From Geosiphon pyriformis uo1 (Eukaryota; Fungi; Glomeromycota), in NCBI GenBank assembly GCA_016748015.1, contig JAAOMT010000168.1, positions 76,190 to 140,189 of the forward strand: a stretch of DNA of 64,000 nucleotides, read 5' to 3'. A program made the translations under genes and the position numbers. The first letter of the stretch is position 1; each line of letters begins with the position of its first letter. The notes beneath the pieces were generated by a model, which worked only from the letters and a program-made list of their open reading frames with translations, was not told the origin of the DNA and did no database searches. This document shows positions 5,226 to 61,879 of this stretch, in pieces.

Positions 5226-5419
5226 TGTTGCTCTGATTGGTCCAAGTGGCTAGTCACATATAAAAAGTGCATAATTTGCATCTAGTTTAAATCACTTAAT
5301 TTAATGTATTGTACTAGGTGGCATTTGGGCCTTACTTGTTAAATGAATAAAAAAAATAAAAATAAAAAAACCATTTATTAAAAAAAAATTTATATTTGTA
5401 TTAATTTTTTTTAAACTAA

Positions 5420-31349: not shown

Positions 31350-32979
31350 TAATTTTCTCTTCAAGATTGAGTTCTATCAAAATCTAAGCACTATCTGTAA
31401 TATTGAGATAGTGGTCCAAAATAATCGTGGTAATTTGGTCTGAAAATTGTTGAAATTTCAGTTCTGTAAGTTTGCCAATGTATTGTATTTTTATTAGTTA
31501 GAGTATTAAATTTTATAAGATGTTTTCACAAGTATTAAATAAGTTATAAAGTCTAAGTGCTGCTCTGAGTTTATAGTAAATGTTTGTTGGTTCAGCTGCT
31601 GTCTTGAATCATTGTAAATTTGTTTTTGTATTGCTTCAGAAGTGAGATTTGTTGTTGTAAGTTTTAATTTTCATTAATAAAGTGTTCTTTCAATATAAAA
31701 ATAATTATATATAAGAGTATAGTTATTGTTCTGTTTATTAAAAATTAATAAAAGTTTTTGTTGGATTGTGTCATTTGGTAAAATGTCAATAGGAATAATA
31801 AGAAAGTTTTTTTTTAAAGTTTGCTTCAAAAGTTCTGGTAGTTGACTTTCAGAATAACTTCTTGTGTTTGTTTTATAAAAATGATATTTCTGGGAATTAT
31901 TTACTACTGAAACTGCAGTTTCTTTTTGGGTGTAATTAATTTTGTTTTCATTGATCATTATAGATAAGTCAGGAAGTGTTTTTAAAGCTAACATTAAATT
32001 TTGTGATATTTATTAAATGTTTCAGGGAATAAGCATTATAAAATTTGAATAAATTTTGAAATTTGAAAAAGAAAAAAATTATTTTTGGTATAGAAGTTTT
32101 TATATATTTTTTTGTTTGGGTATTTTTTGGTAATTATTTTGCTATTTTTGTTTTTAATGTTTCTGTATTTTAAAAGAAATAACTAATAAAATTAAATATT
32201 CAGATTTGTTATTATTCTATTATAACTATTGGTTCTAAATTTCGAGAAATATTTTTAGGATTAATTAGAAAAGAATATATACCAATTTGTGGAATTAATA
32301 ATTCAATTTTGTTTCTGGAATAATAGTGTTATAGTCGATTTTTTTGTGCAACTTTGGCTAGGATTTTGTTATCAAGTTTTAACTTGTATGATCTATTGCT
32401 TAAGATTTTATGAATATAAAATAGTCTATCTTATTTATGTTCAAATTTTTTACCCTATTGTTTTTTAGTCTTAGTTCTGTGTAAGAAAACTTTGTTTTCA
32501 ACTTTAAATTTATTAATAACTAATAGCAGTTTGTTATTATGCTATTCTTTTTGTTAAGCTTGAGAGTGTTTAATATAAGTTACTGCAATTTATTATTTTT
32601 TTTCCAATATGCTAAAAAGAGTGTAAACTCTTTGTTAAAAAGTTTCTTGGAAGTTTTTTTTTGTAATGAATTGTACTAGATATGTATCTACTGTAAAATT
32701 AATTAGTAATATTGCTATTCTTCTATTGGTAAGATCAAATGATATGTGTTTTATAGTATCTTGTTTTAGTGTTTTATATGCTAATAATACTGATAAAATA
32801 AAGATATTCTATTCTTGTTCAAAATTGGTTGAAACTTTAACTAGTAATTCACATAGTGTTTAGTTGAAACATTCTACAAGTTCATTTATTTGGAAGTAAT
32901 AAGATAATAATAAAAGTTTTTTAATATTGAATTGTTCACAAATTTTTTGCATTAAGTTATTTACAAAGTGTGTTTTTAT

Positions 32980-33340
32980 ATAAATTTATTTACAATTAAT
33001 AATAATATATTTTTTAATTTGATATTATTATAAAAACATAAACCTATTAGTGTTAAAACTGATGTTTTAAAAACAGTCAAATGGCTAGTTAGATTGGTTA
33101 ATAATAGTGCTATATTGTTTAAAATTATTCAAAAAATATTTTCTTTAGATAAGTTTTTTTTTAATGTATCAATATAATATAACTTAAATTAGCTTAAATA
33201 ACTAATTATATGTAAAAAGAACATAAACTGTATTTAACTTTAAAATACTTAATTTGTTTCTAATTTCTAAATAAAAATTAGATTATATATATTAAATATA
33301 TAATAAAAAATAATAAATATAAAAATAAAATAAAAAATAA
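32980..33340 (+). mobile_element. 5'-truncated ORF1-only LINE derivative (ORF1 C-terminus, 3' UTR, A-tail)
   Basis: Translates ...KPISVKTDVLKTVKWLVRLVNNSAILFKIIQKIFSLDKFF; inverted homologue of 35135-35460. Confidence 0.75.
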
Positions 33341-33344
33341 AACA

Positions 33345-34890
33345 ATTATTTATAACTAATTTTTGTTTTTTTATATATTATTAAAATTATAATTTTATAA
33401 GTTTTTTATTATAAATTTTAATATTTATGTTTATATAATATAGATAATATAAAAAATATTTTGTATTTTTATTTATAACTAAAAAAATTAAAAAAAATTT
33501 ATTTAATATTATTTGTTTTAATACTATTTTAATCTAAAAAATAAAAAAATATTAATAATTTTTCTAAAACTGTTATTAATATTATAATATATTTTTTTAA
33601 GATTAATTTGAAAATTAATATTAAGATTTATAGTTTGTTGTTTTTAATTTTAACTAATATACAAACTATTATTTTAATACTTATATATATTTTAATATTA
33701 TTTAATATTATAATTTTTTTTGATAACCAAGTATTTTAAATACTTATAATATTAAGTTAATATTAAAAGACTCTAATTTTTATAATAATTGTTAAATTAA
33801 ATACTATTATATTAAGAATTTAATTAAATTTAAAAATATTTTTATTAAATAAGTAAAAGTTAAAAGTTATTTTAATGTCTTAAACAATAAACAAACTAAT
33901 ATATTGGCTAATTTGATTATGTTTTTAGTGTTTATTTTTTCAGCAATTATTGAAAAAAGTTTTTTAATGATGACTAATTAGATAATTTTTAGTAATATAT
34001 TATTTTATTAAATGTTTTTTATAAAAAACTTGTCTAAATTTTAAGATTATAAATTTTTTATTTATTAATAATATTAATTGATATCTCATTGTTTTGGTTT
34101 AATACTCTAATTTTTATATAGCTGTTAGTTTTATAAATAAATTTATTATTAATTTATATATATATTTAATAAAAGTTTTATATAAAAGATTATTAATTAC
34201 TATTAGAAAGTAATTATATAATAATAAATATTCAAATATATTGCATATACAATATATAAAAATGAAGTTTTTAGATCAATTCTTTATCTATGATTCAAAT
34301 TTGTTTATTTATTAAAAATTATTAAATAAATAATTTTTTATTTAAAAATTTTTAACTAGTATTAATTTTGGTATTTTTAATAATGTTTTAATTATTGGTT
34401 TTAGGTTTTTTTAATATTAGTTTATACTTAATTTTATGTAAAAAGTTTATTTATAAAAATTAGTTAATAAAAACTAGAACAGTTTTTAATAATATTAAAA
34501 TTATTATATTAAAACTGGTTAATTTTGTATAAAAATTAGTTATTAATTATAAAGATTATATATAATTATCTAACTTAAAATTGCAAATGATAATAAAATA
34601 AAAAAAATTATTAAGTAATAATAATATGATATGTATTAATATTTCAGATATTTTAAAATAATGTTTTATAACATTATATTTGTTAAAAATAATTAAAAAC
34701 AAATTATTAGTTTTAAATTAAGAATTAAATACATATTTTTCTAATATATTTGTTAATATAGTTTTATAGTATTGTTTTAATTAGCCAATTGGCTAATTAT
34801 TTATAATAAATATATAAATCATATTTAATTTAAAACTTTAAATAGTTGTATTATATTAGTTAATAATTAAATTTTGCTTATAAAAAAAAA
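33345..34890 (+). mobile_element. Extremely eroded LINE 3' relic (RNase H / C-terminal region, 3' UTR)
   Basis: V*YSNFYIAVSFINKFIINLYIYLIKVLYKRLLITIRK (~34097-34210; cf. VWHPDSHMAAGFTSRFTANLCSYFIKTLYHYLLVAVRK); 3' UTR TAGTATTGTTTTAATTAGCCAATTGGCTAATT ~34767 and A-tail ~34882. Confidence 0.78.
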
Positions 34891-35134: not shown

Positions 35135-35562
35135 ATTTTTTTTTAATTTTATTGAGTAAGGATTAATTATTATCTAAAAATTAGAAACAAACCAAGTATT
35201 CTAATATTAAATATAGTTCACATATTTTCTATATATAATTAGTTACTTAAACCAGTTTAAACTATATTATATTGATATTTTAAAAAAAAATTTATCCAAA
35301 AAAACATTTTTTAAACAATTTTAAACAATATAACACTATTACCAAACAATTTAATTAGCTATTTAGCTGTTTTTAAGACATTAGTCTTTATAATAACAGA
35401 TTTATGTTCCTAAAATAACATTAGATTAAAAAACATATTATTATCAACAGTAGACAAACTTATATGAAAGCCAGATATATTAATATCTTCATAGCCAAAC
35501 TCAGTTGTTAAAACAACTACTTTCTATTCTAATTTATTAATAGTCTTATTAAAGATACTCAT
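35135..35562 (-). mobile_element. ORF1-only LINE derivative, 3' segment (split from 45721-47580 by the Gypsy insertion)
   Basis: ORF1 C-terminus, stop at 35267-35269, LINE-type 3' UTR (..CCTTACTCAATAAA) and A-tail on the minus strand. Confidence 0.8.
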
Positions 35563-36423
35563 TGTTACTTATAGAAATATAGAAAATATATTAGCATGAT
35601 TATTAAACAATCAGAAATAGGTATAGTAAATGTGGAATTCCAGGATTCTTCTCAGAAATTACAGGATTTCAGGAATTTCAGGATTCCCCGACGAGAAATC
35701 ACAGAATTCCAGAATTCCAGGATTCCTCTCAAAGAAATTGCAGGATTTCTGTCATAAAGAATCGAGGAATTGAGGAATCTCAATTATGTATATATAGCAG
35801 CAAGATTAGAAGCTAAAAAGACAGACCTCTTAGTTTTAAATTTAATTTAAGCAACTCTCTAAATTACAATCATCTAATAAATAACTATTTGTTATCTCAA
35901 ACCCATTTCCACTATCAACACTTTATGTTAATAGTAATTGATACTTAACCACACTAAAACAATAGCTCTTGATTATGGCTATTAATGAAATACTAACTTG
36001 CAAATTGCCTTGGCTTATTTCTTTTCTTTCTTTATTTTATTTTCTTTTCTTTATTTTCTTGCTTTGATTTTATTGTTGTTTACTAACTCTATTGAGGATT
36101 AGCGCACAGAGCACTAATGTCAGGATAAACATGACTGGTAAAAGACCCAGAAATAAGAGTAAAACACTCGATTGAGAATAGCTTACCAGGAGAAATACTG
36201 GCCATCAAGCTGAAAAAAAAATTGATGAAACTGCAGTTTTGGGAAGCTATGAATAAAACTATCACCATTGAATCTCTGTCCATTATACAAAAAACTCAAC
36301 CAAACCCTTCAAATACAAAACCTTTAGATACCAAACCTTCAGATCATCGACAATAAGAATAACCTTAAGCACCAAGTTACAGGTTTGTATTTAATTCAAC
36401 CTCAGAAATTGTTACTTGTAACA
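35563..36423 (+). repeat. 5' LTR
   Basis: TGTTACTTATAG...CTTGTAACA; direct repeat of 44867-45720. Confidence 0.96.
35633..35800 (+). promoter_or_regulatory. LTR U3 array of GGA(A)TT(C/T)CA motifs followed by TATA-like TATATATAG
   Basis: About 10 short motif copies; TATGTATATATAG conserved in all family-A LTRs; function inferred from position. Confidence 0.55.
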
Positions 36424-36442
36424 TTTGATGCTTCCTGTGAGG
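36424..36442 (+). promoter_or_regulatory. Primer-binding site
   Basis: TTTGATGCTTCCTGTGAGG directly after the LTR; variants at 13309, 13361 and 25744 give consensus TGGTGCTYYCTGTGAGG. Confidence 0.85.
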
Positions 36443-36485
36443 TATAATCTTACAGAGAACCAGCACCAACAAACACTATTCAAAA

Positions 36486-39400
36486 GTGGCAGAATCAGAA
36501 AACATAAGAGCAAACCATTTAGGATTCACAAAATCCCTATTTCAATACTATTGTCAACACTTGAGATTAAACTACAATTATATATCTGCCAAATCAGTCT
36601 TTAATTTCTATGTCAATGAAAAAATTTCCTCTTTGTTAGGAACACCAGTGAATACTAAATCAGCCAGAGAAACTTTCTACAGAGAATTAATTCAAAATAC
36701 CAACCTGCCAACAAATCACAATTTTGCCTCCATCATTACTGAGATCAACAAAGAAATTGAATATTACACCCAACAAAGATATCCAATTACTTATGCTAGT
36801 AAAGGCAAAGAAAAACTACAAACACCAGCGGTAACACCCAAAAGGATACAACCACCCATTTGGAAGAAAACAAGAGCTGAATCACCAACTGCTCCATCTT
36901 ATCACTACACACCAGGAAGCGCCATCAATATAACATCAGCAAGTGTGTCCATATCAAATGCAATATTAACAATCAAACAATTCCCATTCCAAAGTAAACA
37001 AAGAAAAACAGATCTACTAGAACCATATGGCAAATATTTTGAAGGATTTAAGTCATAATCACCAACACCATCAGGAATTCAATTACTGCTGCCTCAACTG
37101 GACTTTGGAACCATTACCCTATGGGAACTATCTGAAGAAAAAGAAGAAAAAGAATTAGAAGATCAAGAATTTACTTACCAAAACTTGATCCTTGAAAACC
37201 TGGAATTTGAAACCCCAAACGTTCAAACTCAGTGAAAAAATCCAGAAATTGAAACTCCAAATATTCAAGCACTGCAAAATCAAAACCCCAAAGTAATTAA
37301 TCAATACTTACCTCCAGTTATCATCATTAATCAACCACCAGTTGAACCAATTGGTCAGCCCATCCAAATACTGAACCAACAAACTCAACAACCACCCCCA
37401 GTACCACCTCAACAACAACAACAACTTCTACCACAGCAACAACAACAAATGGCATACGCATCAATCGCAAAGCTCAACAAATTTACCGGCAAAAAGGACG
37501 ACACACAAGTTTGGCTAAATAATGTAGAAAAAGCCATCGCAGCCAACGGATGGAATAATGCCAGAGCCATGCAAGTCATATCTTATTTTCTCAAAAATAC
37601 AGCAGATTCATGGTATCAAAGCCTGATTGACAAACTCCAAGATTTCAATGCCTTCAAATTAGAATTTTTGAGATACTTTAGCAATAACAACAGCATCAAT
37701 AGATTAGCCAACACTTTCATTACAATTAAACAAAGAGAAACTGAAGCAGTTACCACATATCTGGGACACTTCCATAGAAATCTGCAACAAATTCAAGCAA
37801 TTGATGCTAATTATTTTACAGCGCCACAAATTCTCAATCAATTCATCCGTGGTCTGTGCAGTAGCATTCTGTAACACTTACACCCATTGCATCCAGCCAC
37901 TTTCCAGGACACAGTCACATATGCCAGAGATTTCAAATCTGCCAAATTAGAAGCCAATCATGCTCACGCTGTGAACCTAGTGATGAATGGATCATCTGAA
38001 TTGGATTTTAAATTGAAACAAGTCAGTAATTCAATTAATCAGAAGTTAAAAGAATACTTAGCTGACAATTGCGCAATTTATCAACCACCACAACAATACA
38101 ATAATCCAAAAAATGCGAATTGTTTCCAAAATCAGTCACATCCATCATTATTATCAGCAGTACCTAATCAGCCATGACAGCCAGAAACACGTGTTTGCCA
38201 CAACTGTGGTAAACAAGAACACATAAGAGCAGACTGCAGATTTTATAGCAACAATTCACAATCAGGAAATCAATATTGAAACCTCAATCACAGATTTCAA
38301 ACTCCAAATTGTTATCCAAATCAAAATCAAACTACTTACCTGCCAATAATGCAGCCACCAATCTATCAGCTGCCAATATATCAACCTCAAATTTATCAAC
38401 TGCAGCCACCAATAATCTATTAGCCACAACCCCAAATAATTTATCAATCCCAATCAATTCAGACACTGCCCCAAAATTCAGTTAATATGACATCAGGCCA
38501 CCTCAAACCTAGAATTACACAAAACTGGAGATTGGCAATGATTGTCCACCAACTGATCTCCAGTTCTTTTAACTCACCATCAGAATTGCGTTCTTGGAAT
38601 TCGGGTACTGGTGCCACCCAAAACCTGAATTCTCAGAACTATTTAAGTCTCTTAGTTATCCCAGAAGATGCCACCAACACCAATTTGGGATCTAACCAAC
38701 AATTAACACTCACCAGCAATATTCCACCAGCCACCGTTACAGAAGACAAGTTACTCGCAGCCATATCCCCATTTGAAATTGAGGAACCATCAGAAGTTTC
38801 TTTGTTCAACAGAGTCACTATTGAGGAAAAACCCATCACAGCGATATACACCGATGCCAAAATTAATGGCCATTTCATCAAGCTCATTCTTGATAGTGCG
38901 TCAGCAGGCAGCATTATCACATGACAACTTATGGACCAATTAGGTCGCCGAGTTGATCATGTTGCCAGTGCCAAAATTATAACAGCTGATGGAGCAACCA
39001 AAACTCCTATTGGTGAGATTAACAATCTACCCATTGAAATTAATAGCATCACTGTACCAATCAAGATATTAGTAATGGAAGCAACCCAGTACCAAGCTCT
39101 TGTTGGCAACAACTGGTTGTTTAAAACCAATGCAATACTCGACTGAAACACACAGGAACTCCAACTTAGCCAAAATGGCCAATACATGTGAGTACTGGCC
39201 ATGTGTGGCCATTTTAAATCTAACAACATCACATTATCAATGCCGCTTATTGATTTTGAAAAGGAAAAACCAAAGCTTACTTGGGAGATGTATCAAGTAT
39301 CATGGGCCAATGTCGAGCACAACAAGCTACCGCCAATTCTAGACTGGGAAGAAAGGAACAATGTAAAGAGAAAAGAAACAGAAACAGAAGAACATACCTG

Positions 39401-42400
39401 TGAAACCACTATTAATATCTGGAATAATGACGATGAAAGTAAAGCAATGCCAACCAGCTGAAAAGAAAAAGGGAAAGGAAAGGAGAAAGAAGAAGACTTA
39501 TCTGGAAAAGCTAACGAAGCCATAGAAAAAATAACCAGTGACTAGGAAAGAGAATATTTACATAAACCAGTAAAGAAGTCACCTTACATTCTCTTAAAAT
39601 GTCAGGACTGTAAGAAAAAACTCTCTTCTATGGAAGCATGGATCATGCCAGACGAAGACTACTGGACACGAACCCACTACTACTGCAAACCATGCCATAA
39701 AGAATGCTATAGTTATCCAAAATGACAAGGCAAGTGAGACAACAAACCATGTCTCGCTTGTGGCGAACAGTTACTCGATGAAGAAATGTGGAACGACATT
39801 CCTGGTTGAGGAGGAACATGCGACGCTTCATGCTAATACATGATCTTTATCAGCGATTGAATAAGTTACAGCATGCCAATAACAGCTGCTTGGCACCAAG
39901 CAATATCTCGCTTAGAAGGTTACTCACATGATGAAGACAAAATCTGGTGAATGGCCAATGCCAAAGTAGAGGACGCTTCGCCCAGTGAGATTCTAGAGAT
40001 CAAGAACAACTTTCCAGAACCAACAAACATTGTTTTGGTTCTCAACCCAGATGCCTTTCTCAACTTAGAAAACAGTCCAGAAGAATTCCATGAACACTAT
40101 CAGAACTTAGCACTCATCAGAAAAAAGCAGAAACAAAGATTAAAAGAAATAAACACTTGACTATGTGACTATTGTTTGATTCCATGTGACTTCTAATATT
40201 GTAATAAGTGTGATCTTATTTACAATCCACCACCACGCATGATCTACAAGATTTCCAAAAAGGAAGAACCAATCAGCAGCTGCACATCAGAATCAGAATT
40301 GATTTTCAATTCCAATTTAAACTCTGACAAGAATGACAACGAAAACACCGGTTTCAGCTCTATTCAAAATGACATTAACAATGACAACAATTCCAACTCA
40401 GATCCAAACTTTGACCCAAAATATGAACAATATATTGCACTGCCAGACCTCTCCAAAGAACAGAAGTTGAAATGATATAGTGATAATAATGAAGATATCA
40501 TGCCAGAACATGCACACGATACTGATGCTGGATTTGATCTGAGATATCCAGGAAAAGATGCCATTAAATTGGAGCCAAACATGTGAGTATGCATTGATCT
40601 GAGAATAGCTCTAGAGATCCCAGCAACAACCATGGTTCTGTTAGCATCTAGAAGTAGTTTAGCAAAAAAAGTGATTAATATTAGAGGGTAAATAGTGGAT
40701 GCAGGATATATAGAAAATATTAGTGCCATGTTACAAAATGACTCAGAAAAAGCTTACACTATTGAGCCAAATGAAAAGATAGCACAGGCCATATTCCTGC
40801 CACTAGTCAAAGTAGCTAGCTTAGTGTCAGTGGGAACAAGAGAGAAATTAGGGATAACAGCAAGAGGGATACAAGAATTTAGATCAACAGGTAGAATAGA
40901 TATACCAGTTAATATGACAGAGGAAGAAATTGTTGGCCAAGGAAAAATTATCTCAACCGGTCAAACTATTTCCATTTCACTATATAGCCAGTACATGCTA
41001 GCAATAAAAAGGAAGGAAAAAGAACAGAATCAGATTTTTGAAGCAGAACCAACTCTTTGCAAATCAGGAGAGATTGGACTCATCAATCTCCATATACCAG
41101 CCAAAGATTACAGCCACATCAAAATTTTTATCTACAACAACACAGGAAATGTCATAGTGATACCAGCCAGAACCACTATGGGATACTTAAACACTGAAAT
41201 AGAAGATCAACCACCAAACTCCATTCCAAACTTTCCACAGCTTTGTGGATATGTCGACATCATATCACAAACAATCTATGAACAAGACAAATGTTATTTG
41301 CTCCAACCAGAACAATTAGAACAAATGAACATGGGAAATCTAGACCTATTACAACGTATACAGCTCAAGATGTTACTCAACAATTACAATAATATCTTTG
41401 TCAGCAAAAACAAATTTGGCAGAACTGACATCATCCAACATCAAATCAAGACTGGAGATGCAATGCCAATCAAACAGCAAGCATACAGAGTACCACCAGC
41501 CAGCCATGAAATTATTCATCAAGAAATCAACTGAATGCTTGACAATGAGTTAATTCAGCCATCAATGAGCCCATGGTTGTCACCAGTAGTACTCGTCTGT
41601 AAGAAGAATGGAAAGATCCGATTTTGTGTAGACTACAGGAAACTAAATAGTGTAACTCATGGAGACAGTTATCCAACTCTATAGATACAAGAACTATTCG
41701 ATGCTTTTGGTGGAAACAAATGGTTCTTAATGTTAGACTTAAATAATGGTTACTAACAAGTAACCATGGATCCAACCAACAAAGAAAAGATGGCATTTAC
41801 CACCAGAGAAGAGAATTTTGAATTTAAAGTAATGCCATTTGGCTTAACCAATGCACCAGCCACTTTCCAAAGACTAATAGAAATTGTTTATATGGGTTTA
41901 TTGTGGAAATCAGTAGTTGTATACTTGGATGACACTAATGTATTTTCAAAAACATTTGATGATCATCTTCATCATCTTCAACAAGTGTTCGAAAGACTAA
42001 GAAAAGCAGGACTAAAGTTAAATACAACAAAGTGTTTCTTTAACAAGACAGAACTAAAATTCTTGGAACACATAGTCAGCAAAGACAGCATCAAAACAGA
42101 TCCAGAGAAAATAGAGATAGTAAAGAACTTTCTAGTGCTGACAAATATGACAGAACTGAAATTATTCTTGGGATTTGCCAGCTATTATTGATGTTTTATC
42201 AAGAACTTTTCCAAGATAACACAGCCACTCAACCAACTGCAAACCAAGAATACAAAATATGAATAGACAGAAAGTCAACAAGAAGCTTTTGATATTCTGA
42301 GAAGAAAGCTCATTCAAGCTCCAGTACTGATCTATCCAGATCACAGCAAACCATTCATCATTACTACTGATGCATCTGGCCAAGCATTGGGAGCAGTATT

Positions 42401-42725
42401 ATCTTAGAGAGGACCAGATAGCAGGGAACATCCAGTAGCATATGCCAACAGAGATTTAACACCAGCCGAAAAGAATTATGAAACACTGGAACAAGAACAC
42501 TTAGCAATATACTGGGCAGTCATGAAATAGAAAAAATACTTGAGCCAAAAGTTTGAAGTATACACAGATCACAAAGGATTAACATCACTTCAAAAACAAA
42601 AATTTGGAGATGGAAGACAGTTAAGATGGAAAATGGCACTCATACCATATAATTATACTATACATTATAAAAAGGGAAAAGACAATGGAAATACTAATGG
42701 TTTGTCACAAATGAGACAAATCTAG
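36486..42725 (+). pseudogene. gag-protease-dUTPase-RT-RNase H polyprotein, one reading frame, internal stops
   Basis: ORF-track pieces 36486, 37449, 37887, 38487, 38931, 39201, 39951, 40239, 40695, 41766 and 42540 are all in the same frame; capsid (VWLNNVEKAIAANGW), CCHC CHNCGKQEHIRADC 38196-38237, LILDSAS, FCVDYRKLN, YLDD, TDASG, YTDH. Confidence 0.93.
40500..40895 (+). pseudogene. dUTPase domain within the Gypsy polyprotein
   Basis: All five trimeric dUTPase motifs: DAGFDL, ASRSSLA, IVDAGY, KIAQAIF, RGIQEFRSTG. Confidence 0.92.
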
Positions 42726-42786
42726 GAACATTTCAACCCAAAATATAACAAAACCAGAACAATACCAACAAAAAATATAACAAAAG

Positions 42787-44169
42787 ATGAACATACAAAA
42801 ATATCAATAACTGCAACATTATATAAACACTTAACAGTTCAAGAAGAATTTATCTCAAACAGAATGAAAGAGTATCAAACAACAATCAAAATATTTTATC
42901 ACTTACCAAAATATACTTTATCAAAAAAATAGAAGAGAGCTAGAACAACCAACCAGAGTAATTACAGAGCCAAAAAAAGAGACAATATTATTTAACATGC
43001 ACTCAAATCCAACAACAGGACACTTTCACAAAGAAGCAACCATGGAAAGAACCAAAAAAAAATACTATTGGCCATCAATGTATCCAGATATCATCCAATA
43101 TGTTCAAAATTGTGATGCTTGTCAGTGAAGAGGAGGTACAAAACCCAGTGAACCATTAAGACCAATCAAAGTGGGACAACTATTTAACCATATTGAAATT
43201 GATTTAGTTGGACCATTAATAATTACCAGAGGAAGAAACAGATACATAGCAGTAGCCATGGACTATCTCACTAAATGGCCAGAGACAAAAGCAATTCAAA
43301 GAGCGGATGCAGAATCCATTGCCAAATTCATTCATCAAGATTTAATTTGTCGACACGGATGTCCAAAGGAATTATTATCAGACCAAGAAACTCATTTTGT
43401 AAACAAAACATTAACAGAATTGAGCTAAAGATTCGGAATTAAGAGATCACTATCATTATCATACCATCCACAAACCAACAGATTAGTTGAAAGATTTAAC
43501 AGAACATTATGTGAAACAATAGCTAAGCTCAGTTAAGAAAACCAAAATGATTGGGACGTGTTAATATCAGCAGTACTATTTGCTTATCGAACAATGAAGC
43601 AAGACACTACACAAGCAATACTATTTGAATTAATATACAGTAGAACAGCAATATTACCAGTGGAGATAGAGGTCAACACATATCCAACTGAACCAATAAC
43701 AGAAAAGAATTTCTAAGAAACATTATTAAAAAGAACATATAACTTAATGGAAATATTGGAAAACAAATGAAAAAAAGCAGCTGATAACATACAAAAGTCA
43801 CAAGAGAAACAGAAAAAAAGACATAATAATCAACTATCAAACAAACCAGTTGAATTCAAGATTGGAGACAAAGTACTCTTACATCATACCAAAGCGGAAA
43901 AACAATAGAGTGGAAAATTTGACTCCAAATAGAATGGACCATTTCACATAGAAAAAATTCTAGGGAATAGAGCTTACAAATTAAGACTGGACAACAAAAT
44001 CTTAACCAAAGCAGCACATAGAGATCGACTGAAACCATACCACAACACCATACTACCATCCACCAGTAATATTCCACAATTAGGAGTACAGAGAATACTA
44101 GTCCAATCAGATCAAATTCCACGAGATCTGGAACCAATTATTATTATTAACAACAACACATCAAATTGA
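42787..44169 (+). pseudogene. Integrase (HHCC, DDE core, GPF motif), separate ORF
   Basis: ATG 42787; HSNPTTGHF, CDACQ, IDLVGPL, SDQETHF, LVERFNRTL, GPFHI; ends LEPIIIINNNTSN*; no chromodomain visible. Confidence 0.92.
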
Positions 44170-44193
44170 TCCATCAAAAAAATATATAAAGAC

Positions 44194-44853
44194 ATGGTAA
44201 ATATGACAGGAAATATCAGAAAAATAGAAATTACAGACAACATTCACTCACTAGTACAACAACTTTTTTAATTGATCCAACACCAGGAAATAGAGATTAT
44301 AATCAATTAACAAACCATTCGATATCAAGATACTAGAAAGACATTGCAATCTAGAACACAGAAGAAAACTGAAAATACTGTGGACAAAATCATTGTGAAA
44401 GTAAAATTAGCAATAAGAGAGTTGACAAAAGAGTCACTATATCAAGAATTGACTAAAAAAACTTGGAATTAGTAGATACAACAATTTTCATGAAACTATT
44501 GTTATTTTTACTTGGGACAACATGTAAATATCCAGAATCTATATATAGATAAAACAAAGTGATTATTTGACAAAAAAATACTACAACAATTAGAACATTT
44601 TGTGAGAAAGAATAACTTATCCACACAGACCTGAGCTATATACCAAATATACACAACATTTCAGGATAGACCAGAAATATTACTCAACAAAGCAATAAAT
44701 ATGGTTATCAGTAATCAATTGGGAAAGATTACCAATGCTCAATTTGAAGAATTACAGACCCAAATAACACAAGTAATTTTCAAAAACAAAATCCAGAAAA
44801 TACTTCAAGAGGGGGAATTATATGAGTTGGATTTCAACAGAGCTCAATATTAA
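44194..44853 (+). pseudogene. ORF3 of unknown function (~219 codons) between integrase and PPT
   Basis: ATG 44194 and TAA 44851-44853 in frame; internal stops consistent with single transitions; homologous segments in three other elements. Confidence 0.75.
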
Positions 44854-44866
44854 AAGGAGAGAATAA
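44852..44866 (+). promoter_or_regulatory. Polypurine tract
   Basis: AAAAGGAGAGAATAA immediately before the 3' LTR. Confidence 0.88.
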
Positions 44867-45720
44867 TGTTACTCATAGAAATATAGGAAATATATTAGCA
44901 TGATTATTAGTCAATCAAAAGTAGGCATAGTAAATGTGGAATTCCAGGATTCCTCTTAGGAATTGCAGGATTCCAGGAATTTCAGAATTCCCCAACAAAG
45001 AATCACAGGATTCCAAAATTTCAGAATTCCAGGAATTCCAGGATTCCTGTCATGAAGAATTGAGGAATTGAGGAATTTTAATTATGTATATATAGCAGCA
45101 GGATTAGAAGCTGAAAAGACAGACCTCTTAGTTTTAGATTTAATCTAAGCAACTCTCCAAATTACAATCATCTAATAAATAACTATTTGTTATCTCAAAC
45201 CCATTTCCACTATCAATACTTTATGTTGATAGTAATTGATACTTAACCACACTAGAACAATAGCTTTTGATCCAGCTATTGACGGAATACTAACTTGCAA
45301 ATTGTCTTGGCTTATTTCTTTTCTTTCTTTATTTTATTTTATTTTCTTTATTTTCTTGCTTTGATTTTATTGTTGTTTACTAACTCTATTGAGGATTAAT
45401 GTGCAGCACACTGACATCAGAATAAACGTGACTAGTAAAAGACCCAGAAATAAGAGTAAAACACTCAATTGAAGATAGCTTACCATGAGAAATACTAACC
45501 ATCAAGCTGAGAAAGAAATTGACAAAACTGTAGTTTCAGAAAGCTACGGATAAAACTATTACCATTGAATCTCTGTCCATTATACAAAGAACTCAACCAA
45601 ACCCTTCAGATACAAAATTTTTATATACCAAACCTTCAGATCATCAACAATAAGAATAGCTTTGAGCACCAAATTATGAGTTTGTATTTAATTCAACATC
45701 AGAAATTGTCATCTGTAACA
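44867..45720 (+). repeat. 3' LTR
   Basis: TGTTACTCATAG...TCTGTAACA. Confidence 0.96.
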
Positions 45721-47580
45721 TTATATGTACTAAAATCTTATTAATCTTAAGGCTAAAAACACTACTTAAAACCAAATACTTATTAATAAATTATTTAAGC
45801 ATAGTAATCATAAAACCAACTGACATAATAATAGACTCAATTAAAATAGAAAGCTTGACCAAATTAGATTCCAGAAAAGCCAACTGAAAAAAAACCACAA
45901 AATTATTAGTTATTATATTAGCAGAAAAAGCTAAACCAACCAAAGAACAAAAAGCTAAAAAGATACAAAAACAGTAGCTTTGATATAAAACTTGTTGTTA
46001 ACAACACAAGAAATAAAAGTCTTGAAAATTTTAAAAAAGAGAGATAAAAACACTTTATAATTTAAGTTAAATAATCTAAATTTTAATACTAAAAACAGCA
46101 CTAATTTTCAGAAATCTTTTATTATATATGATACTTTCTTAGTATACTAATTTTAATAACTATGATATCTAAATTAATTTGAGATTCAAACATAATTAAA
46201 GCAAACCAGAAACAATGGTTAAAATCAAGAAAATAAAAAATAAAACATATCTGATTATTAATCTGAAAAATCATATTATTAATTTCAAAAGCAGTATAAT
46301 TAAAGAAACAATTAATCAACTTGGCCTTAAATCTATCATAAAATATAATAGTTTTATTTTAATTTATTAAGAAGAAGATTCTAACACTATTTTTACTTAC
46401 CAAAACTGACCAATAATTCAAAGTAAATACAATAGAGTTCAGTTTATTAAAATAAATAATCACATATTGTCAAATTCTAACAGATTTCAATATAATATAA
46501 ACAACCTTATTAAACATACTAAGAGCTATTATGATATTAGCAGTAAATACACCCAAAGATATATTATACAGTACAATAGTAACAGAAAGAGAACTACTCT
46601 TAAAAACCACCAAAAACTTGGTAATTTTAAGAGTAATTAAATAAACAAAGCTCATAAGCTCAACCAGAAAAGCAGCTTTTAAAGACTTCTAAAAAGCAAA
46701 CTTCATACAAAAAAGCTTTACATTGTTTTTTTACACCAACTTTACATCCAAAAATCCATGTACAAACTGAAAAACAGTCTTAATATAAGCTAATTTAATC
46801 TTAAAAGTAGTATTAAACACCAAAAAAAAAGTCTATTTACTTAGTAAATCTTTAACAACTAATAATAATTTCTTAAACACTATTAGTAGCAGCACCAAAA
46901 ACCAGCAGAAGAAATGATTTAGTTTTCATTTGGTTAATTTAGTTTTTAAAAACAGATGACTTTATAGAAAATAGTTGCTTTACTTTTATAATTGATAAAA
47001 ATCTGTTAAAAGACTTTATATTTAACAATACAGCTAATAATAAATCTTGATTTATTTTAAATAACATATTAGATAATACAATAGAAATTTTATCTAAGAT
47101 CTTATCTAAAACCACAAAAGAGTTTGGTGTAATAATAACAAAGACAAGTGACTGTTTCCATTTTTTTGAAACTTTGGTTTTTTTGATCATTATTTTTAAA
47201 GAAGCAGTACTAAAAGCACTAGGTGTAAAAACTATAATAAGAAAATTTAGCTTATTAATTAGTCTGTTATTAAAAACTTTTGGGTTTTTAGAAGGAGTAA
47301 AAGCAATTTTAGAACTATTTCAAATGTGTTTCTTTAAAAAAATTTTGACTAGTAAAAAATCAGTTAAAGATACAAAGATATTTTAGTGACTACTAAAAAC
47401 AGTTTTTTATTATTATTAACTAAAAAAAAAGCTTTTAAGATGTTTTACTTAGTTGTTTTTACAACAAAAAGAACTTTTTTAGTTAAAACTTTGTGAAATA
47501 TTAAAAAAAAGTATCAGTTACAGCTTTTTTACTCTTTGTTTTAATTGTGATTATAAAATTAAAAAGACAAAGAGATGTTT
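45721..47580 (-). mobile_element. ORF1-only LINE derivative, 5' segment
   Basis: Minus-strand ORFs 46939-47190, 46470-46655 and 46122-46319 resemble LINE ORF1 (e.g. TAFEINNMIFQINNQICFI vs TAYDLSGLLESYNEKTCFI); LINE-like 5' end CATCTCTTTGTCTTTTTAATT..TAATCACAAT; frame rejoins 35558 after removing the Gypsy. Confidence 0.8.
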
Positions 47581-48174
47581 TTTTTAATATAATATTATTA
47601 CTATTTATAAAAAAAATAAAAATTAAATTTTTTAATTAATATATAATATAAATTAGTTAATTATATATATTAAAAATAGTAAAATAACTTAATATTAAAA
47701 CTTTAAAAATATTAAAATTATTAATAATAATTCAAAAAATATATAAAAATAATTAAAAATATTAAAATATTTAGCAAATAAAACAGATTTTTTTGTTAAA
47801 ATAATTACTTTTTAACTAAATAATTATTAATAAAATACAAAAAACCATCAAATTTTGTTAAATTTTTTTTTAAATCTTAAATAAACTATTAATATTAAAG
47901 AAACAAACTTATTTTTTATTAAAAGTAAAATTTAAAAATAATAAAAATAGTAATAGTGTTTATTAAAAAAAAAAATAATTAAAAAAGTTTATTTTTATTA
48001 AAAGTTAAATTAAAAAATATTTTTAAGATAAAAATAATAATATAAAAAATCTTTCTTTTGTTAATCCTCTGACCATAATAAGAGCATAGATAACTTTGGA
48101 GAAGTCATTTTTCATTTTTTTTTTTCCCTCAATCTCTATTAGGTATTTTTTCCATTATATCCCTGTTTGTTGTA

Positions 48175-50114
48175 ATGAACCTGATGGGCACTTCTGCTAA
48201 TGACTCTGGTTTAGTTTCAGCCAGTTTGGAAACCTGTCAAAGTGTGAAAAAAAAACATGTAGATATGATCTACTCTAAAGGTACATCCTATAAAAAGCCA
48301 AAAAAGTCTATTGTCAATGATATGGTTAACTCATCAGCTAAACTTTTGAGCATAGAAAATATTGGTTGCACTGGTGTCAAGCCAGTAGTGTCTTAGAAAA
48401 GTGAGGTTGGCAGTGTTACTAACAATGTAAGTAATCTCTCAGATGTTAAGAATATGGCAAACATAATGGCCAAAGAAATTAGTTATGTAAAATCAAATGA
48501 AGACAATAATATAGACAAGACTACATCAAGAAAAACTTGCACTTAGATGTACGTGCTGGGCAACTTACTAAAGCAACTTTTTTTTGAATGTATGAGTAAT
48601 GACAAAGTTGTGCTGAAGCTTCCTCTTTGTGTAAATAATAGGTCCAATCAGTTGCCACTGCTCGAATTATGTGTTCTGGGAATACAAAGTTTTAATTTGA
48701 CAAAATCTTTTGTGCTTGATATCAAGCTTTCTGTAGTACCAGACAAATCAGTTAGTGATAAATTAATTTCAATAAAAAAAATTTTTTATTGAGTGAATGG
48801 TTTTGAAAAAGTCTCAACTCTCTCAAAATTTTCAGAGATCATCAGATCTTCTTTTACATCTGAGTTAAGTCTGAATAAGGCTAAAAAATTGGCAATCTGT
48901 GAGAAAATTTTGGTAAACAATGATGTTAGAAAGCTGAGTATTTGTTCAAATCAGGAAGTGATTGTCAAAAAAATTCCAGTCAATCTTCTCAAATCAGCTA
49001 TAGAATCAGTTTTTTCTAAATTTGGTAAGGTAGTTTCAATCAAGATACAACTGATTGGTCTTTGGCAAAAGCTTTAGTAGAGTTTGAGTCATCTGAAGTT
49101 GCTAGCTTGGTTGCCAAATGGTCAGTTTTTATGGGAAAAGATTCTGTACATGTGGCTTTGACTGTGAATGATAAAGAATCATAGGTAATAAGGAATCAGC
49201 ATCGAGCTTTGCTCTACACTCTTCTTATTGGTATTACTGCTTATGATTTGTCAGGTTTGTTGGAATCATATAATGAGAAGACTTGTTTTATTGGTCACAA
49301 TTCAAGCTCATATGTTTGTAATAGATATGCAGTGATTTGTTTTGAGAATAAGACATCTAAATTGGCTGTTATTGGTTCTGTTCCAGTCTTTAAGAGTGTG
49401 AATTTGCATTGGGCTGGTCTTTTTTTGGCCTGTTGTGTCAAGTGTAAACAATTTGGTTATATCTTTAATGTGTGTTTGATTGGTGAGAATTCTGGAATTT
49501 GTGTTAAGTGGGTGGTAACTGATCAGAATTGGGTTTGTTTGACCAGTATTTATAAAAAGAAACAGGCTCTTGTTATCTGTCCAGTCTTTTTTGATAGTAA
49601 AACTTGGGCTCAAGTTGTTGGTGGTTTTTTATTTCATGTGGCTCTCTTACTTCTTTTTGGTGCTAGTCTGTTTTCTGGTCCCAAGACCTCTTCATTTGCC
49701 TCTGTTTTCTCTAGTGATTTTGACTTGTATGACCATTTGGCATCTTTGAAATGCTCTTTGGAGCTTCTGGCAGACCAGATTTCTGGTATTTTAAAAAAAA
49801 TGAGTTTCACAGAATTGGTACCCCTAGTGATCACTTTTAAAGTCTCTTTTCCAGTTATTCTTGTGTCTGTAGTCTCTAGTTTGAAGTCGGATATGGCTTT
49901 GAATGGTGCATTGGTGTTTTCTGCTCTTCCTCTTCCAGTTGTCAATGATACAGTTACTGATTTAAGTTTAAGTAATACTAAGGTTTTGACCACCAAAATT
50001 GGTGGTCTGAAATCCAAGATGGTAGCTTTGAAGGTGTCTGTTAAATCTGTTTTAAAGAAATGAGACCATTTGTGCTTGGGTTTGGATTCATTGGCTTTTT
50101 TTTCTTCTCAATAA
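48175..50114 (+). pseudogene. LINE ORF1 (gag-like, CCHC knuckle relic)
   Basis: ORF-track 48175-50063; IESVFSKFGKVVSIKI RRM-like segment; CVKCKQFGYIFNVC. Confidence 0.88.
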
Positions 50115-53100
50115 TTGATTTTGTCTGAAAAATTGTAACATATAATATAAAAGATATGAAAAATCCTGCAAAACAAGAGAATATTGTGCAATAGCATAAA
50201 GACATAAACAATCTGATCTCAATTTTTATGAAAACAAAGTTAAAAAAAAATGTATGTTTATGGATTGTCAACAAATTTGATGGCATTTGAATGTTTACTT
50301 CTGGTTTGGATTCTGGATATCTGGGTGCTAGAGTTGTGGTCATTATGAGTTTTTCTTTGGCAAAACATGTGTACAAAGTTTTCAAAGTGCCTGGCTGGCT
50401 TTTATTCATAAAATTACTTTTCAAAAATAAACTTTCTGTGTTAAATTTGGGGCTTTATGCTAGTGTTTTTTTGGCAGTTTGGTTCTATTAGGCTGATGAT
50501 ATCAATTTTTTTATTGCAAAGACTGTTAATGAATCTTTTTTTATCATTCTTGGTGGTAATTTTAATGAAGATGGTTCTCATAAATATGCAAGTTTTAAAA
50601 AGTGCCTCAATTTGGAACTGGTTAATTCTTTGGTTAGAAGTCTGATTGTAAAAATGCCCACTTGGGTGAATTCTAGAGGTGTTATAAAAACGATTGATTA
50701 CATGTTTGTTTCTTCTAATCTGGTCAATGCAATAGTATATTGCAATGTTTTGGAAATCGGTAAGCATTTTGACATGGATTACCAAGCTGTTTTTCTGTCT
50801 GTGGGTTTGGATAAAATTTTAAATACGCAATTGAACTCTTTTTGCAAACAAGTAAACAAAAACAGGTGGAAGTTTGATTTCAAAAATGCTGATAAAAATA
50901 AATGGACTGATTTTAAGAATGCCATACTAGCCAATACAACTATGTTCCTAAACGAGTTTGTTGTCTCTACAAGGTCTTCAGATTTGGATGCAATGTGGTA
51001 TGTCATTCACAGGATAATGATTCTTTTGGCTAGTGGGGTTTTTAAGAAAAAATGATTTAAGGACTTTGATAGTGTTTTTACCAAAGAATTTTCAAGATTT
51101 CATAAGTTGAAACTTTTGGTTTCTAAAATTGTTAAGGCCTCTCATAAGGAGAGTATTGTGAATTTTGTTTTCTTTATGAAATGCTGGGATTCTTTGAACA
51201 AGGTCAAGGCTTTGGTCATTTAAGATCTAGTGAATTTTAGTATAGACTCTAATCATGTTTGTTTTGCTCTCTTTGGTACCAGAAAGTCTTATCATGCATC
51301 CAAGTTTGCTAAGTCTTTGAAAGCTAAGAAGATGAATATTAGATCTGCCATTGATAAGAGGATGGAAAGCTTTGAAGTAAATAAAGGTCATACAATAAAG
51401 AGTGTGTTAGAGTGTTTGTTTTGTAAAGTGGTGCTTGACCATTTGGTTGTTAATAATAAACTAATTCTGGGACCTGAGTTGGTTAAGTCTAAGGTAGATG
51501 TAATTATGAAAGGTTGGACTAGGAAGCATCAAGTGGTTGATGACATCACTGATAAATAGTATCATTAATATTAGCTTTTGGAGTATGTTTTTAATGAAGC
51601 TTTTTCTGGAATAATGTGTTTGATCAGTTTTAATGAATTGTTTGGTGTGGTTTTCAATCTGCCAGAAGGCAAAGCTGCCAGTTTGTTGGATATCTCAAAT
51701 GAGCTTTGGAAACATTATAATAAGTCAGTACTGGATATGCTTTTAGTGCTTTTAAACTCTTATTTGTCTAGTGAGTTGGTGCCAGGTTTGTGGAAAGAGA
51801 CTTGGGTCTTAATAATTCCCAAATTATATGAATAAGAGGGTGTTCTGACAAATACTCATTCCATTACTTTAATTGAAACAGCCCAAAAGATTCTTTCCAA
51901 AATTCTGTCTGATAGGATTTCTTCAGCATGCAGTGCTTATAGTGTTCTTCATAAAAACAATTTTTCAGTTTTAAAAAGTACAATGACTTAGTCTTTTATT
52001 TTTGTGATTGGTTTAGTGGTTAAAAATGCTTTGGAAAAGAACTAAGAGCTCTGGCTAGTTTTGCAAGACATGCAAAAAACATATGATTTGGTTAGCTGAG
52101 AGCATCTTAAGAAAAGTTTGATTAGGATTAAAATGTACAGCAAATTCATTTATTTTTTTGATAGTATTCACAAGGATTATATTAACTGAGTTATAACAGA
52201 TTTTGATTTAACAGATGGATATTTTGTTCATGATAATTTAGATCAGGAAGAAGTTTTTTCTTCTCTTCTGTAATACATATTTTATAATTCTCTGCTGTGT
52301 GAAGTCAAGCATCAGAAAAGTGTGTGTGGGTATAGATTGAACTCTCATTTTGTTTTCAGAAGTGATTATATTGAATCCCAAACAGGACTTTCTTTTTTTT
52401 TGCTGCTGGTGCTTTCATTAATGATATAATTTGGGTTGGTAGCAGTCAGATTGCTACTCAACATATTCTTAATATTGCCAGTAAATTTTTTCAGATCAAT
52501 GATATCTCAATTAAATAATGATAAAACAGTGGCTATTTCTATTAATTGCAGAGTTAGCAGTTCTTCTCTTTTAATTAGTGATTCACCTATCTCTATCACC
52601 AAAAAGAGAGAATCTTATCAGTATCTGGGTATTTTTCTTTCAACTGAGGGTCTTATGAAGCCTAGTTTGGCCAGGGCATATTTGGACATTCATTTTTTCA
52701 TCAATCTGGTTCTAAAAAAAGCTGTCTCAAATAAACAGTTTTTATATTTGGTGTTAATAGTTCTCCAATCCATAGTTAACTATAGAATACAGTTTAGCTT
52801 TGTTTCAATTAGTGTGTACAACAGATGAAATGCTCTGATTCATAAAGACTTAAAGCTTAAATCTGGTCTGCCATCTGATTTTTTCAGTGATACAATTCAC
52901 CACTCTTCATTTTATGGTCTAAAGTCTTTTTCAAAAGTTCAGTCTGAGTGTAAGGTTGCTTTTTTTATTGGTTTTGTAAACTCTGGTGAAATTTTGGGTT
53001 ACTGGTTTTCTCACAAATCTCATAACTTGCAAGTTCAGTATTGGCATCTTGTTTATCTATTAAGTTCTTCTGTTCATATTTATGTCAGTGCTTCTAATAA

Positions 53101-54794
53101 CTTTTTGGTGGGCATGATCTGTATTCTTCTTGATTGCAATTTGTTTTTGAATGGCTTTTTAGCCAATTTTTTCTGATTTTGCAGTAGAGTGTTCATGTCT
53201 ACTGTTCTAGATAAGTCAAAATTTTTTAAGTTTTTCTCTTTTCTCCGAAGGTATGACATTGCTTTTGTGGATCAACTTCATGATTGTTATGGTACTGTCT
53301 TTAATTGGTATACTTTTAAGCAGTGAAAAAAACTGGATCCCCATGGTTTTATTCCTAAATGGTTTAAGCTTTCTGTTGTGTTTTTTGATGATGTGATTTC
53401 TTCTCCTACTGGTTCTTCAGCTTTGAGTGGTGTTGGTTTTTTAAACATACTTAGGTCTAGTGATTATGCTTGTGTTTGTAATCATCTTTCTTGGGTTGGC
53501 TCTAGTTGTTTATCTGTATACATAGATGGATCTCTGAAGAAGTTGGGCACAGCTGGCTATAGAGCTGGTGCTACTGTTTTCTTCAAGAACATTGATATGA
53601 GTTTGGGCATTGGTATATTGGGTTTGATGTCATTCACTCTGGTAGAACTGCAGGCTATTGTATTGGCTCTTAAGTGTGTCTTTTATCTAGTTCTGTTCAC
53701 TTGTTTTTAGATAGTCAATTTGCTTTGGATACTTGTAAATTAGAATTTAGTCTTGTGTGTCCTAATTTCTGCAATCAGTGTTAGATTGAGCATCAGCATA
53801 TTGTTAATATCATTTGTAGTAAGAATTTGAGTATCAATTGGCACAAGATTAAGGGTCACTTTGGTGTTTCTGGAAATGAGCACACTAATGTAATAACTAG
53901 TGCTGCTTCTTTTTCTGGTTGGCGTTTTTCTTTTTGCTTGGATAAACGTTTTATAGTGGCTGATGATGTTGTTGTTTCAAGCAATTTTAGACACTTTGTT
54001 TGTGATATTTATTGCTCCATTTGTTATGCATGTTGGGAGATTGGTTTTAGTTCTAAGTTTTTAACAAGTAATCTGCTTTCTGAGATTGATTGGCCCTGCT
54101 CTTTACTGGTGTGGCATCCTGATTTGCATATGGCTGTCAGTTTTATCAGCAGGCCCTCAGCTAATACATATACTTCATGAAAGCTTTGTATTGTTGGCTG
54201 CCTATTGCTGTTCAGAAATGCTTTTATAACAGATATTATGTTAGTGTGTTGTATTTATATTGTGACAATGTGGAGATTTCAAATCATATATTTTTTTATA
54301 AGGTTAACAATTCTGTTTATCATCAGATATTAGACTTTTATATGGTTTCTTGGAAGACTCTTTCTGGTTTTTCTTATTTATTTTCAAGTGTGTTACAACT
54401 GTTGTCATCTTGTGTTTCTGGTTCCTCAGTCTTTATGGCTCTTTATAAGAATTTTGTTTTTAATAATTGGTTTTGTAAAACTGTTTCCATATTTTATGAT
54501 CACAAGGTTGCTGGCTTAAAAGTTGTTAAGTTTGTGTGCTTTCTTGGTTTCATCTTTAAAAATAATATTTGGCTGGTTCGTGCTAAACATTGTGTCTATA
54601 TAGAGAAGGCCAAATTGATTTTATTAGATGGTTCAGCTTTAGTGTTAGTTTCTGGTTTGGCTTTGGGTTTTTCTGCTGGTGTAGTTAAGTTGCTTGGCAT
54701 TACTAAGGCTATGGGCATTTGTTTTGGTTTTTGCAAATTTTGTTTATTTTTTTCTGGTATAGGTAATTTAGTTTTGGTTTATATAGCTGCATAG
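50111..54794 (+). pseudogene. LINE ORF2 (APE-RT-RNase H)
   Basis: GGNFNE, TIDY, LQDMQKTYD, YIDGS, WHKIKGHFGVSGNEH, VWHPDLHM. Confidence 0.92.
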
Positions 54795-54950
54795 TGGTGT
54801 TCTGATTGGTTTGAGTGGCTAGTTACTTGTAGAAAATACATAATTCATGCCTAGTATATAATTATTTCTTTGATGTATAGCATTAGGCTGTGTTTGGGCC
54901 TTACTCGTTAAATGTTAATATAAAAAAAATAATAATAATAATATAAAAAA

Positions 54951-61768: not shown

Positions 61769-61782
61769 AATAATAATAATAT

Positions 61783-61785
61783 AAA

Positions 61786-61816
<31 letters not shown>

Positions 61817-61822: not shown

Positions 61823-61879
61823 ATTTAAATATTATTAAATATAAAAGCTAATTATTATTATTATTTTATTTTTTAAAAA

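What the first reader, a model, noticed from the sequence alone, without database searches (positions are those of the whole stretch)
35135..47580. ORF1-only 'half-LINE' revealed by excising the Gypsy element
Seen: removing 35563-45720 and one TSD copy restores a minus-strand frame VFSLKINKILVHI|SIFNKTINKLE*KVVVLTTEFGYED. The ~2.3-kb element has a LINE-like 5' end and one ORF1-like gene whose stop (35267-35269) is followed at once by the LINE 3' UTR and A-tail, with no ORF2. A second, diverged copy with the same ORF1-to-UTR junction lies at 32980-33340, so this is a family. Known: HAL1 elements are ORF1-only L1 derivatives in mammals and some other eukaryotes. Inference: an independent fungal HAL-like parasite that supplies its own ORF1p and borrows RT via the shared 3' stem-loop.
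Basis: partly seen in the sequence, partly recalled or inferred. Interest (0 to 1): 0.72.

Follow-up and report, generated by a model that had tools for sequence, protein, structure and literature searches.

The report
Old, abundant fungal ORF1-only LINE family
This is a dead copy, split by another transposon, of a high-copy fungal jumping gene that has the two ends of a LINE retrotransposon and one RNA-binding-type gene but no copying-enzyme gene, so it likely borrows that enzyme from complete LINEs nearby, as mammalian 'half-L1' elements are thought to do.

Summary
Confirmed. A Gypsy element (35563-45720, 4-bp target duplication) splits a 2.28-kb minus-strand element with one decayed ORF. 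The ORF belongs to a family of hundreds of Geosiphon pyriformis 'hypothetical proteins' (about 700 aa; RRM, CCHC knuckle, family-specific C-terminal helices). Its stop is followed at once by the 3' UTR of the complete LINEs in the window, and its first ~37 nt match their 5' end; the start codon lies inside that motif. Among long gene models, the family ORF runs into an ORF2 endonuclease in 0 of 17, ordinary LINE ORF1s in 53 of 62. The family is one clade, only 19-33% identical to resident LINE ORF1s, so it is old, not a fresh deletion. Subfamilies A/B neighbour one LINE lineage (13 of 13 models), subfamily C another (9 of 10), a hint of helper switching. Not shown: the junction at DNA level outside this window, a target duplication, dN/dS, mobilisation in trans. 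Copy 2 is only a 370-bp 3' fragment. The kind is known (HAL1, TRE5-A.2, HeT-A, Ag-Sponge); this is a new, independent member.

The parts
47540..47578 (-). 5'-terminal motif shared with the window's complete LINEs; holds the decayed start codon (47554-47552)
   Evidence: 25-27 of 37 identical, 33 of 37 by purine/pyrimidine, to LINEs at ~48052, ~54952, ~7520; shuffles as good 0, 0, 1 of 2000
45721..47554 (-). 5' part of the ORF1-like gene (about residues 1-595 of relatives): low-complexity N-terminus, RRM region, CCHC region, start of the C-terminal helices; stops and frameshifts
   Evidence: domains from intact relatives
45721..45724 (+). right copy of the Gypsy 4-bp target duplication
35563..45720 (+). 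Gypsy-type LTR element inserted into the ORF; LTRs 35563-36430 and ~44867-45720
35559..35562 (+). left copy of the Gypsy 4-bp target duplication
35267..35558 (-). 3' part of the ORF (subfamily B type C-terminus) ending in TAA at 35269-35267
35135..35266 (-). LINE-type 3' UTR with decayed 9-bp hairpin, and short A-rich tail
   Evidence: (z 5.9-10.3 against four LINE UTRs, 0 of 500 shuffles each)
32972..33345 (+). copy 2: 3' fragment (last ~68 codons, stop 33175-33177, UTR, A-rich tail), tail to tail with copy 1
33556..34890 (+). heavily decayed, 5'-truncated LINE (late ORF2 to 3' UTR), head to tail behind copy 2
   Evidence: scores 404-467 against three window LINEs, shuffle maxima 47-62
48052..54951 (+). 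complete-layout LINE (ORF1, then endonuclease at 50129), likely of the helper lineage; 17-bp flanking duplication
54952..61790 (+). second complete-layout LINE, head to tail behind the first

Best explanation
It is a dead copy, split by a Gypsy insertion, of an old, high-copy LINE derivative that keeps both LINE ends and one ORF1-like gene, lacks ORF2, and is likely copied in trans by the ORF2 protein of complete LINEs in the same genome. Shown: the ends, the single ORF, the family, the absence of ORF2 behind the stop in both window copies. Inferred steps: the 5' motif acts as internal promoter; the RNA is translated into its own ORF1 protein, which coats it; helper ORF2p binds the shared 3' UTR or A-tail, nicks an A/T-rich target and reverse-transcribes there; since each insertion leaves an A-rich duplication that is again a target, family copies and LINEs pile up head to tail. 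The family probably arose by loss of ORF2 from a LINE before the resident lineage-I LINEs diversified.
For: UTR homology starts at the stop: purine/pyrimidine identity 0.80-0.91 behind it, 0.50-0.62 before it; z 3.9-10.3 against -1.3 to 1.3 (8 of 8 pairs). 5' motif shared; read in the family's start frame the LINE at 54952 gives SVTTRA, and the commonest family N-terminus is MTTTRAK (33 of 129). Family size: 345 proteins at E<=0.001 (ordinary ORF1s may be among them), the best 120 all named Geosiphon pyriformis; 3168 contigs of run X1 laid on the 5' half. Long models (>=1020 aa, 72): family ORF into endonuclease 0 of 17, ordinary ORF1 53 of 62, Fisher p 4e-11. Where something is fused behind the family ORF it is the start of another LINE's ORF1 (8), mid-ORF2 (2) or other sequence (4), of 139; ORF2 ends likewise run into the next ORF1 (9) or a family start (1). 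The nearest outside relative is an ordinary ORF1 followed by a 1397-aa frame with endonuclease, RT and RNase H motifs (L001), so ORF2 loss is the derived state. One clade, 100/99. CCHC pattern intact in 61 of 129 models; 7 of 129 (two are the references) nearly full length with at most 15 gap positions. C-terminal domain shared by A, B and C (hhalign 95-98%).
Against: The ORF-to-UTR junction is seen as DNA in two copies only, both subfamily B type; the rest rests on predicted, spliced gene models, where an intron could hide an endonuclease (P0138, P0185, P0231 join family to mid-ORF2). 125 of 139 models simply end and say nothing on what follows. No target duplication shown: an 11-bp A-rich match flanks copy 1, but 7% of random AT-rich pairs do as well. 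UTR folding is not significant. No RNA run was available to test expression, and no dN/dS was run.
Confidence: 0.86

Rival explanations
1. The family ORF is the ORF1 of an ordinary autonomous LINE, and the window copies are private deletions of ORF2.
For: Three models join family ORF to mid-ORF2; the nearest outside relative has ORF2.
Against: No direct endonuclease start in 259 family-bearing models against 53 of 62 for ordinary ORF1. Two diverged copies (UTRs 74% identical) share one junction. The window itself shows a 5'-truncated LINE sitting behind a family tail, which would give a family-to-mid-ORF2 model.
Confidence: 0.05
2. The family ORF is an extra upstream gene of a three-ORF LINE (family ORF, ORF1, ORF2); the fused models show the real element.
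For: Family ORF is followed by an ORF1 start in 8 of 139 models; subfamily and LINE lineage are matched (13 of 13, 9 of 10).
Against: Both window copies end in their own UTR and tail; the three LINE 5' ends in the window are preceded by A-rich sequence, not a family ORF; ORF2-to-next-ORF1 fusions are as common (9); reverse orders occur (P0142, P0224, P0257, P0302). Least excluded for subfamily C, for which no DNA was seen.
Confidence: 0.06
3. A domesticated ORF1 (like L1TD1) expanded as a host gene family, or passively copied pseudogenes with no selection on the protein.
For: Annotated as host hypothetical proteins; no dN/dS available.
Against: Copies keep both LINE ends and an A-tail, sit in transposon nests and decay by C>T/G>A like their neighbours. 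RRM, CCHC and C-terminal domain are kept across subfamilies 36-64% identical, which a passive passenger would not do.
Confidence: 0.03

Closest known systems
HAL1 (half-L1) of mammals (PMC5753468, PMC3627910, PMC4161310: passages; Bao and Jurka 2010 not held)
   Same: Non-autonomous LINE derivative that encodes ORF1p only; long-kept coding capacity taken to mean cis ORF1p plus trans ORF2p.
   Different: Independent origin in a glomeromycotinan fungus; helper ORF2 carries RNase H; ORF1 has RRM and CCHC with helices at the C-terminus; ORF1 only 19-33% identical to resident LINE ORF1s; start codon inside the 5'-terminal motif.
TRE5-A.2 of Dictyostelium (PMC3159450: passages)
   Same: ORF1 kept, large ORF2 deletion, mobilised in trans by full-length ORF2p, 3' module essential; the experimental precedent for the mechanism.
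   Different: TRE5-A.2 is a deletion form of TRE5-A.1 itself and targets tRNA genes; here no close parent is found, and insertions cluster at A-rich ends of LINEs.
HeT-A (Jockey clade) and Ag-Sponge (CR1 clade) (PMC5786205: passage)
   Same: Bipartite, ORF1-present non-autonomous LINEs; head-to-tail arrays with the partner recall HeT-A/TART (recalled, not from a call).
   Different: Other clades and hosts; nothing here points to telomeres.

Membership tests
ORF1-present non-autonomous LINE (HAL1-like) | Encodes an ORF1-type protein | tested here: met
   RRM_1 and zf-CCHC in intact relatives; homologous to ORF1s that precede an endonuclease
ORF1-present non-autonomous LINE (HAL1-like) | No ORF2 between ORF1 and the 3' end | tested here: met
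   2 of 2 window copies; 0 of 17 against 53 of 62 long models; indirect outside the window
ORF1-present non-autonomous LINE (HAL1-like) | 5' and 3' ends shared with an autonomous LINE; A-rich tail | tested here: met
   the 37-nt 5' block was chosen after seeing the alignment, the control allowed best placement anywhere
ORF1-present non-autonomous LINE (HAL1-like) | Multiplied as a unit | tested here: met
   259 family-bearing models of 323 examined; 129 start at the family N-terminus; unit boundaries at other loci not seen
ORF1-present non-autonomous LINE (HAL1-like) | Target site duplication | tested here: inconclusive
   11-bp A-rich match, reached by 7% of random AT-rich pairs
ORF1-present non-autonomous LINE (HAL1-like) | Purifying selection on ORF1 along replicating lineages | tested here: inconclusive
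   Domain retention across subfamilies; no DNA of other copies, so no dN/dS
ORF1-present non-autonomous LINE (HAL1-like) | Mobilised in trans by the partner's ORF2p | not testable with these tools
   Needs a retrotransposition assay or new insertions
HAL1 in the strict sense (derived from L1-clade elements of mammals) | Parent belongs to the L1 clade | tested here: inconclusive
   Helper ORF2 is endonuclease-RT-RNase H; solved-structure hits are weak and split between R2 and human L1 RT (E 4e-5 to 1e-3); no clade references at hand
HAL1 in the strict sense (derived from L1-clade elements of mammals) | Descent from mammalian L1 ORF1 | tested here: not met
   No L1 ORF1 Pfam family in 37 plus 10 proteins scanned; named relatives are all Geosiphon

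The most novel reading that the evidence does not exclude
One ancient ORF1-only lineage has outlived its own parent LINE and survives by matching its ends to whichever LINE is active: subfamilies A/B ride LINE lineage I and subfamily C rides the distant lineage II in the same genome. That would be a protein-coding retro-parasite that switches helpers, with a family-specific C-terminal domain that may recruit helper ORF2p.
Probability: 0.35. Interest if true: 0.68.

Novelty: new member of a known kind. Interest (0 to 1): 0.44.

Why it matters
It extends ORF1-only LINE parasites to Glomeromycotina, the group of the arbuscular mycorrhizal fungi and Geosiphon; the nine paper searches listed no such report. 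It shows that hundreds of 'hypothetical genes' in the Geosiphon annotation are one retroposon family. It offers a test of an open question, why a non-autonomous element keeps its own ORF1p for so long: here the protein is far from the helper's ORF1p while the RNA ends match the helper's. If the two subfamily-helper pairs hold, one genome contains a natural helper-switch experiment.

Tried and rejected
No whole genome is held, so no genome-wide DNA search. Pfam found nothing in the four decayed window translations. Family alignment against metagenome and prokaryote contigs: 191 and 100 pattern matches, no relative. No RNA holder listed. Runs X2 and X3 laid nothing. AlphaFold model of the family was poor (mean pLDDT 43; only about residues 323-386 and the helices 610-660 above 70), so no fold search was run. 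Idea that the family's C-terminus is a leftover of the ORF2 end: not supported (hhalign probability under 0.3%). Idea that the family comes from another lineage than LINE I: not shown; holding family and lineage I together is not rejected (AU p 0.14), with lineage II it is (p 0.016); the sister position of P0285 (98/93, 92/88) carries a long-branch warning. Continuation of the Gypsy piece beyond copy 2: none found. A first global test of the 5' motif with windows out of register was mixed (128, 8 and 1 of 1000 shuffles); the in-register test is. The first classification used a chimeric reference and was redone. DNA transposon reading dropped. Bao and Jurka 2010 could not be read; supplements of PMC11952901 (curated TE library) were not opened and might list this family.

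Full report
Setting. The window is an AT-rich nest of decayed LINEs and Gypsy elements. No genome is held for it. A mid-ORF piece of the element found 37 proteins of 456-2000 aa, all named Geosiphon pyriformis hypothetical proteins, at 46-60% identity. The host is most likely G. pyriformis or a close relative (inference).

The observation. The Gypsy element has LTRs at 35563-36430 and ~44867-45720 and a 4-bp duplication with one C>T change. Relatives align across the insertion point without a gap, and 22 contigs of run X1 continue there with the other half of the ORF instead of the LTR. The element is 2284 bp without the Gypsy. This copy is dead: ten stops in each of three translated pieces and six in the fourth, at least six frame changes, and ATA where relatives start. 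Copy 2 covers only the last ~370 bp, from 32972, beside an internal Gypsy piece. Behind it lies a decayed 5'-truncated LINE with its own UTR.

The ends. Behind the stop, both copies match the 3' UTRs of four window LINEs, starting at the stop codon itself: z 3.9-10.3, 0 of 500 shuffles in 8 of 8 pairs; the ~60 nt before the stop give z -1.3 to 1.3. A 9-bp hairpin with a 5-nt loop is predicted from the six UTRs, two pairs with compensatory changes, but no whole UTR folds clearly better than shuffles. At the 5' end a 37-nt block matches three LINE starts (25-27 identical, 33 by purine/pyrimidine; 0, 0, 1 of 2000 shuffles; block chosen after the alignment). The family's start codon sits inside this block: the same frame of the LINE at 54952 reads SVTTRA and the commonest family start is MTTTRAK (33 of 129). 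So the family has a 5' leader of about 25 nt, where the LINEs have over 100.

The family. A 25-sequence profile gave 345 proteins; the 120 listed are all Geosiphon, many 650-708 aa. Intact members carry RRM_1 and zf-CCHC. Three subfamilies appear, A, B and C, 36-64% identical, with a shared C-terminal domain. Identity to ORF1s of complete Geosiphon LINEs is 19-33% over the RRM-CCHC core. In trees of 45 and 23 rows (2 short rows left out of the first) the family is one side of a 100/99 branch, outside both resident ORF1 lineages and next to an environmental ORF1, P0285 (long-branch warning). P0285's locus has a normal ORF2 behind it. Family plus lineage I as one clade is not rejected (p 0.14), family plus lineage II is (p 0.016). 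The safe reading: ORF2 was lost before lineage I diversified.

Is ORF2 absent family-wide? Without DNA I used gene models as witnesses, since the predictor often splices neighbouring frames together. A search for 1020-3248-aa proteins with either ORF1 type gave 70. Of 72 long models, ordinary ORF1 runs into the start of ORF2 in 53 of 62, the family ORF in 0 of 17 (p 4e-11). Over 323 proteins (213 named Geosiphon, 110 not looked up; 15 environmental ones set aside) 259 hold the family ORF and none has an endonuclease start behind it. Of 139 models in the named set, 8 run into another LINE's ORF1 start, 2 into mid-ORF2, 4 into other sequence, and 125 end. ORF2 ends run into the next ORF1 9 times and into a family start once, so the family stop behaves like an element end. 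The window shows how: the LINE at 48052 is flanked by a 17-bp A-rich duplication whose right copy is the left flank of the next LINE (matches of 17 or more in 0.55% of random AT-rich pairs). Limits: models are predictions and most are silent on what follows.

Partner matching. In fused models, A/B neighbour lineage I in 13 of 13; C neighbours lineage II in 9 of 10, one ambiguous and left out of the test (Fisher p 2e-6). The window fits: B-type copies among lineage I LINEs. Since ORF2p picks the target (established for target-primed reverse transcription; own knowledge), this suggests that each subfamily uses a different helper. But the models are not independent, lineage II references came from two of them, and shared age or region could give the same pattern. 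For C, a two-ORF1 element is not excluded.

Mechanism. Shown: LINE ends, one ORF1-type gene, no ORF2 in the two copies, a large old family. Inferred: transcription from the 5' motif, cis coating by its own ORF1p, capture of helper ORF2p through the shared 3' end, insertion at A-rich targets. TRE5-A.2 is the tested precedent for mobilisation in trans of an ORF1-only element with an essential 3' module (PMC3159450, passages). HAL1 is described as ORF1p-only with several origins (PMC5753468, passages) and long-kept coding capacity (PMC3627910, passage); PMC5786205 (passage) groups HeT-A, HAL1 and Ag-Sponge as ORF1-present non-autonomous LINEs; PMC4161310 (passages) mentions HAL1 as likely L1-mobilised. 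PMC11952901 (passages) covers Geosiphon TEs and has no occurrence of 'ORF1' or 'non-autonomous' in its main text. Other papers were seen as search listings only.

Novelty. It works like HAL1 but is not descended from it. Nine literature searches listed no glomeromycotinan example; subscription journals and Repbase are not covered. Earlier notes of this scan report ORF1-only LINE families in other fungi (unchecked), none by place or sequence for this one. That makes the kind look recurrent in fungi and lowers the surprise. Verdict: real, new member of a known kind, interest 0.44; the age, the copy number and the possible helper switch are what lift it.

Noticed in passing
33556-34890 (+): A 5'-truncated LINE decayed to 10% GC, still recognisable by purine/pyrimidine pattern, with its UTR at about 34770-34890.
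   Followed up: yes
48035-48051, 54935-54951, ~61770-61790: Two LINEs head to tail share one A-rich 17-19-bp duplicated target; each insertion seems to remake the target for the next.
   Followed up: partly
LTR pair 35563-36430 / 44867-45720 and whole window: 83 transitions against 8 transversions; CpG observed/expected 0.12; C>T in all contexts (CG 9, CT 23, CA 18, CC 14), so not CpA-focused RIP. Some stretches fall to 10% GC.
   Followed up: partly
proteins P0269, P0302, P0224, P0257: A second, distant LINE lineage (II) in Geosiphon, ORF1 19-30% identical to lineage I, endonuclease slightly closer to L001.
   Followed up: partly
window LINEs at 71-5368, ~7520-12630, 48052-54951, 54952-61790: In all four, ORF2 begins within about 25 bp of the end of the ORF1 match and in another frame; ORF2 of relatives carries RNase H.
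   Followed up: no
61850-62750 (-): LINE 3' end tail to tail with the LINE that ends at 61790; its UTR folds best of the six (z -1.69).
   Followed up: partly
5410-6330 (-): Decayed LINE ORF2 piece in the opposite orientation behind the LINE that ends at 5368.
   Followed up: no
29692-31263: A long imperfect inverted repeat, about 600-bp arms around 30490, 73-79% complementary.
   Followed up: no
proteins P0012, P0015; P0023, P0041: Gene models that seem to begin with the antisense reading of a family 5' end (head-to-head copies; by eye), and models where Gypsy gag follows a cut family ORF: Gypsy insertion into the family recurs.
   Followed up: no
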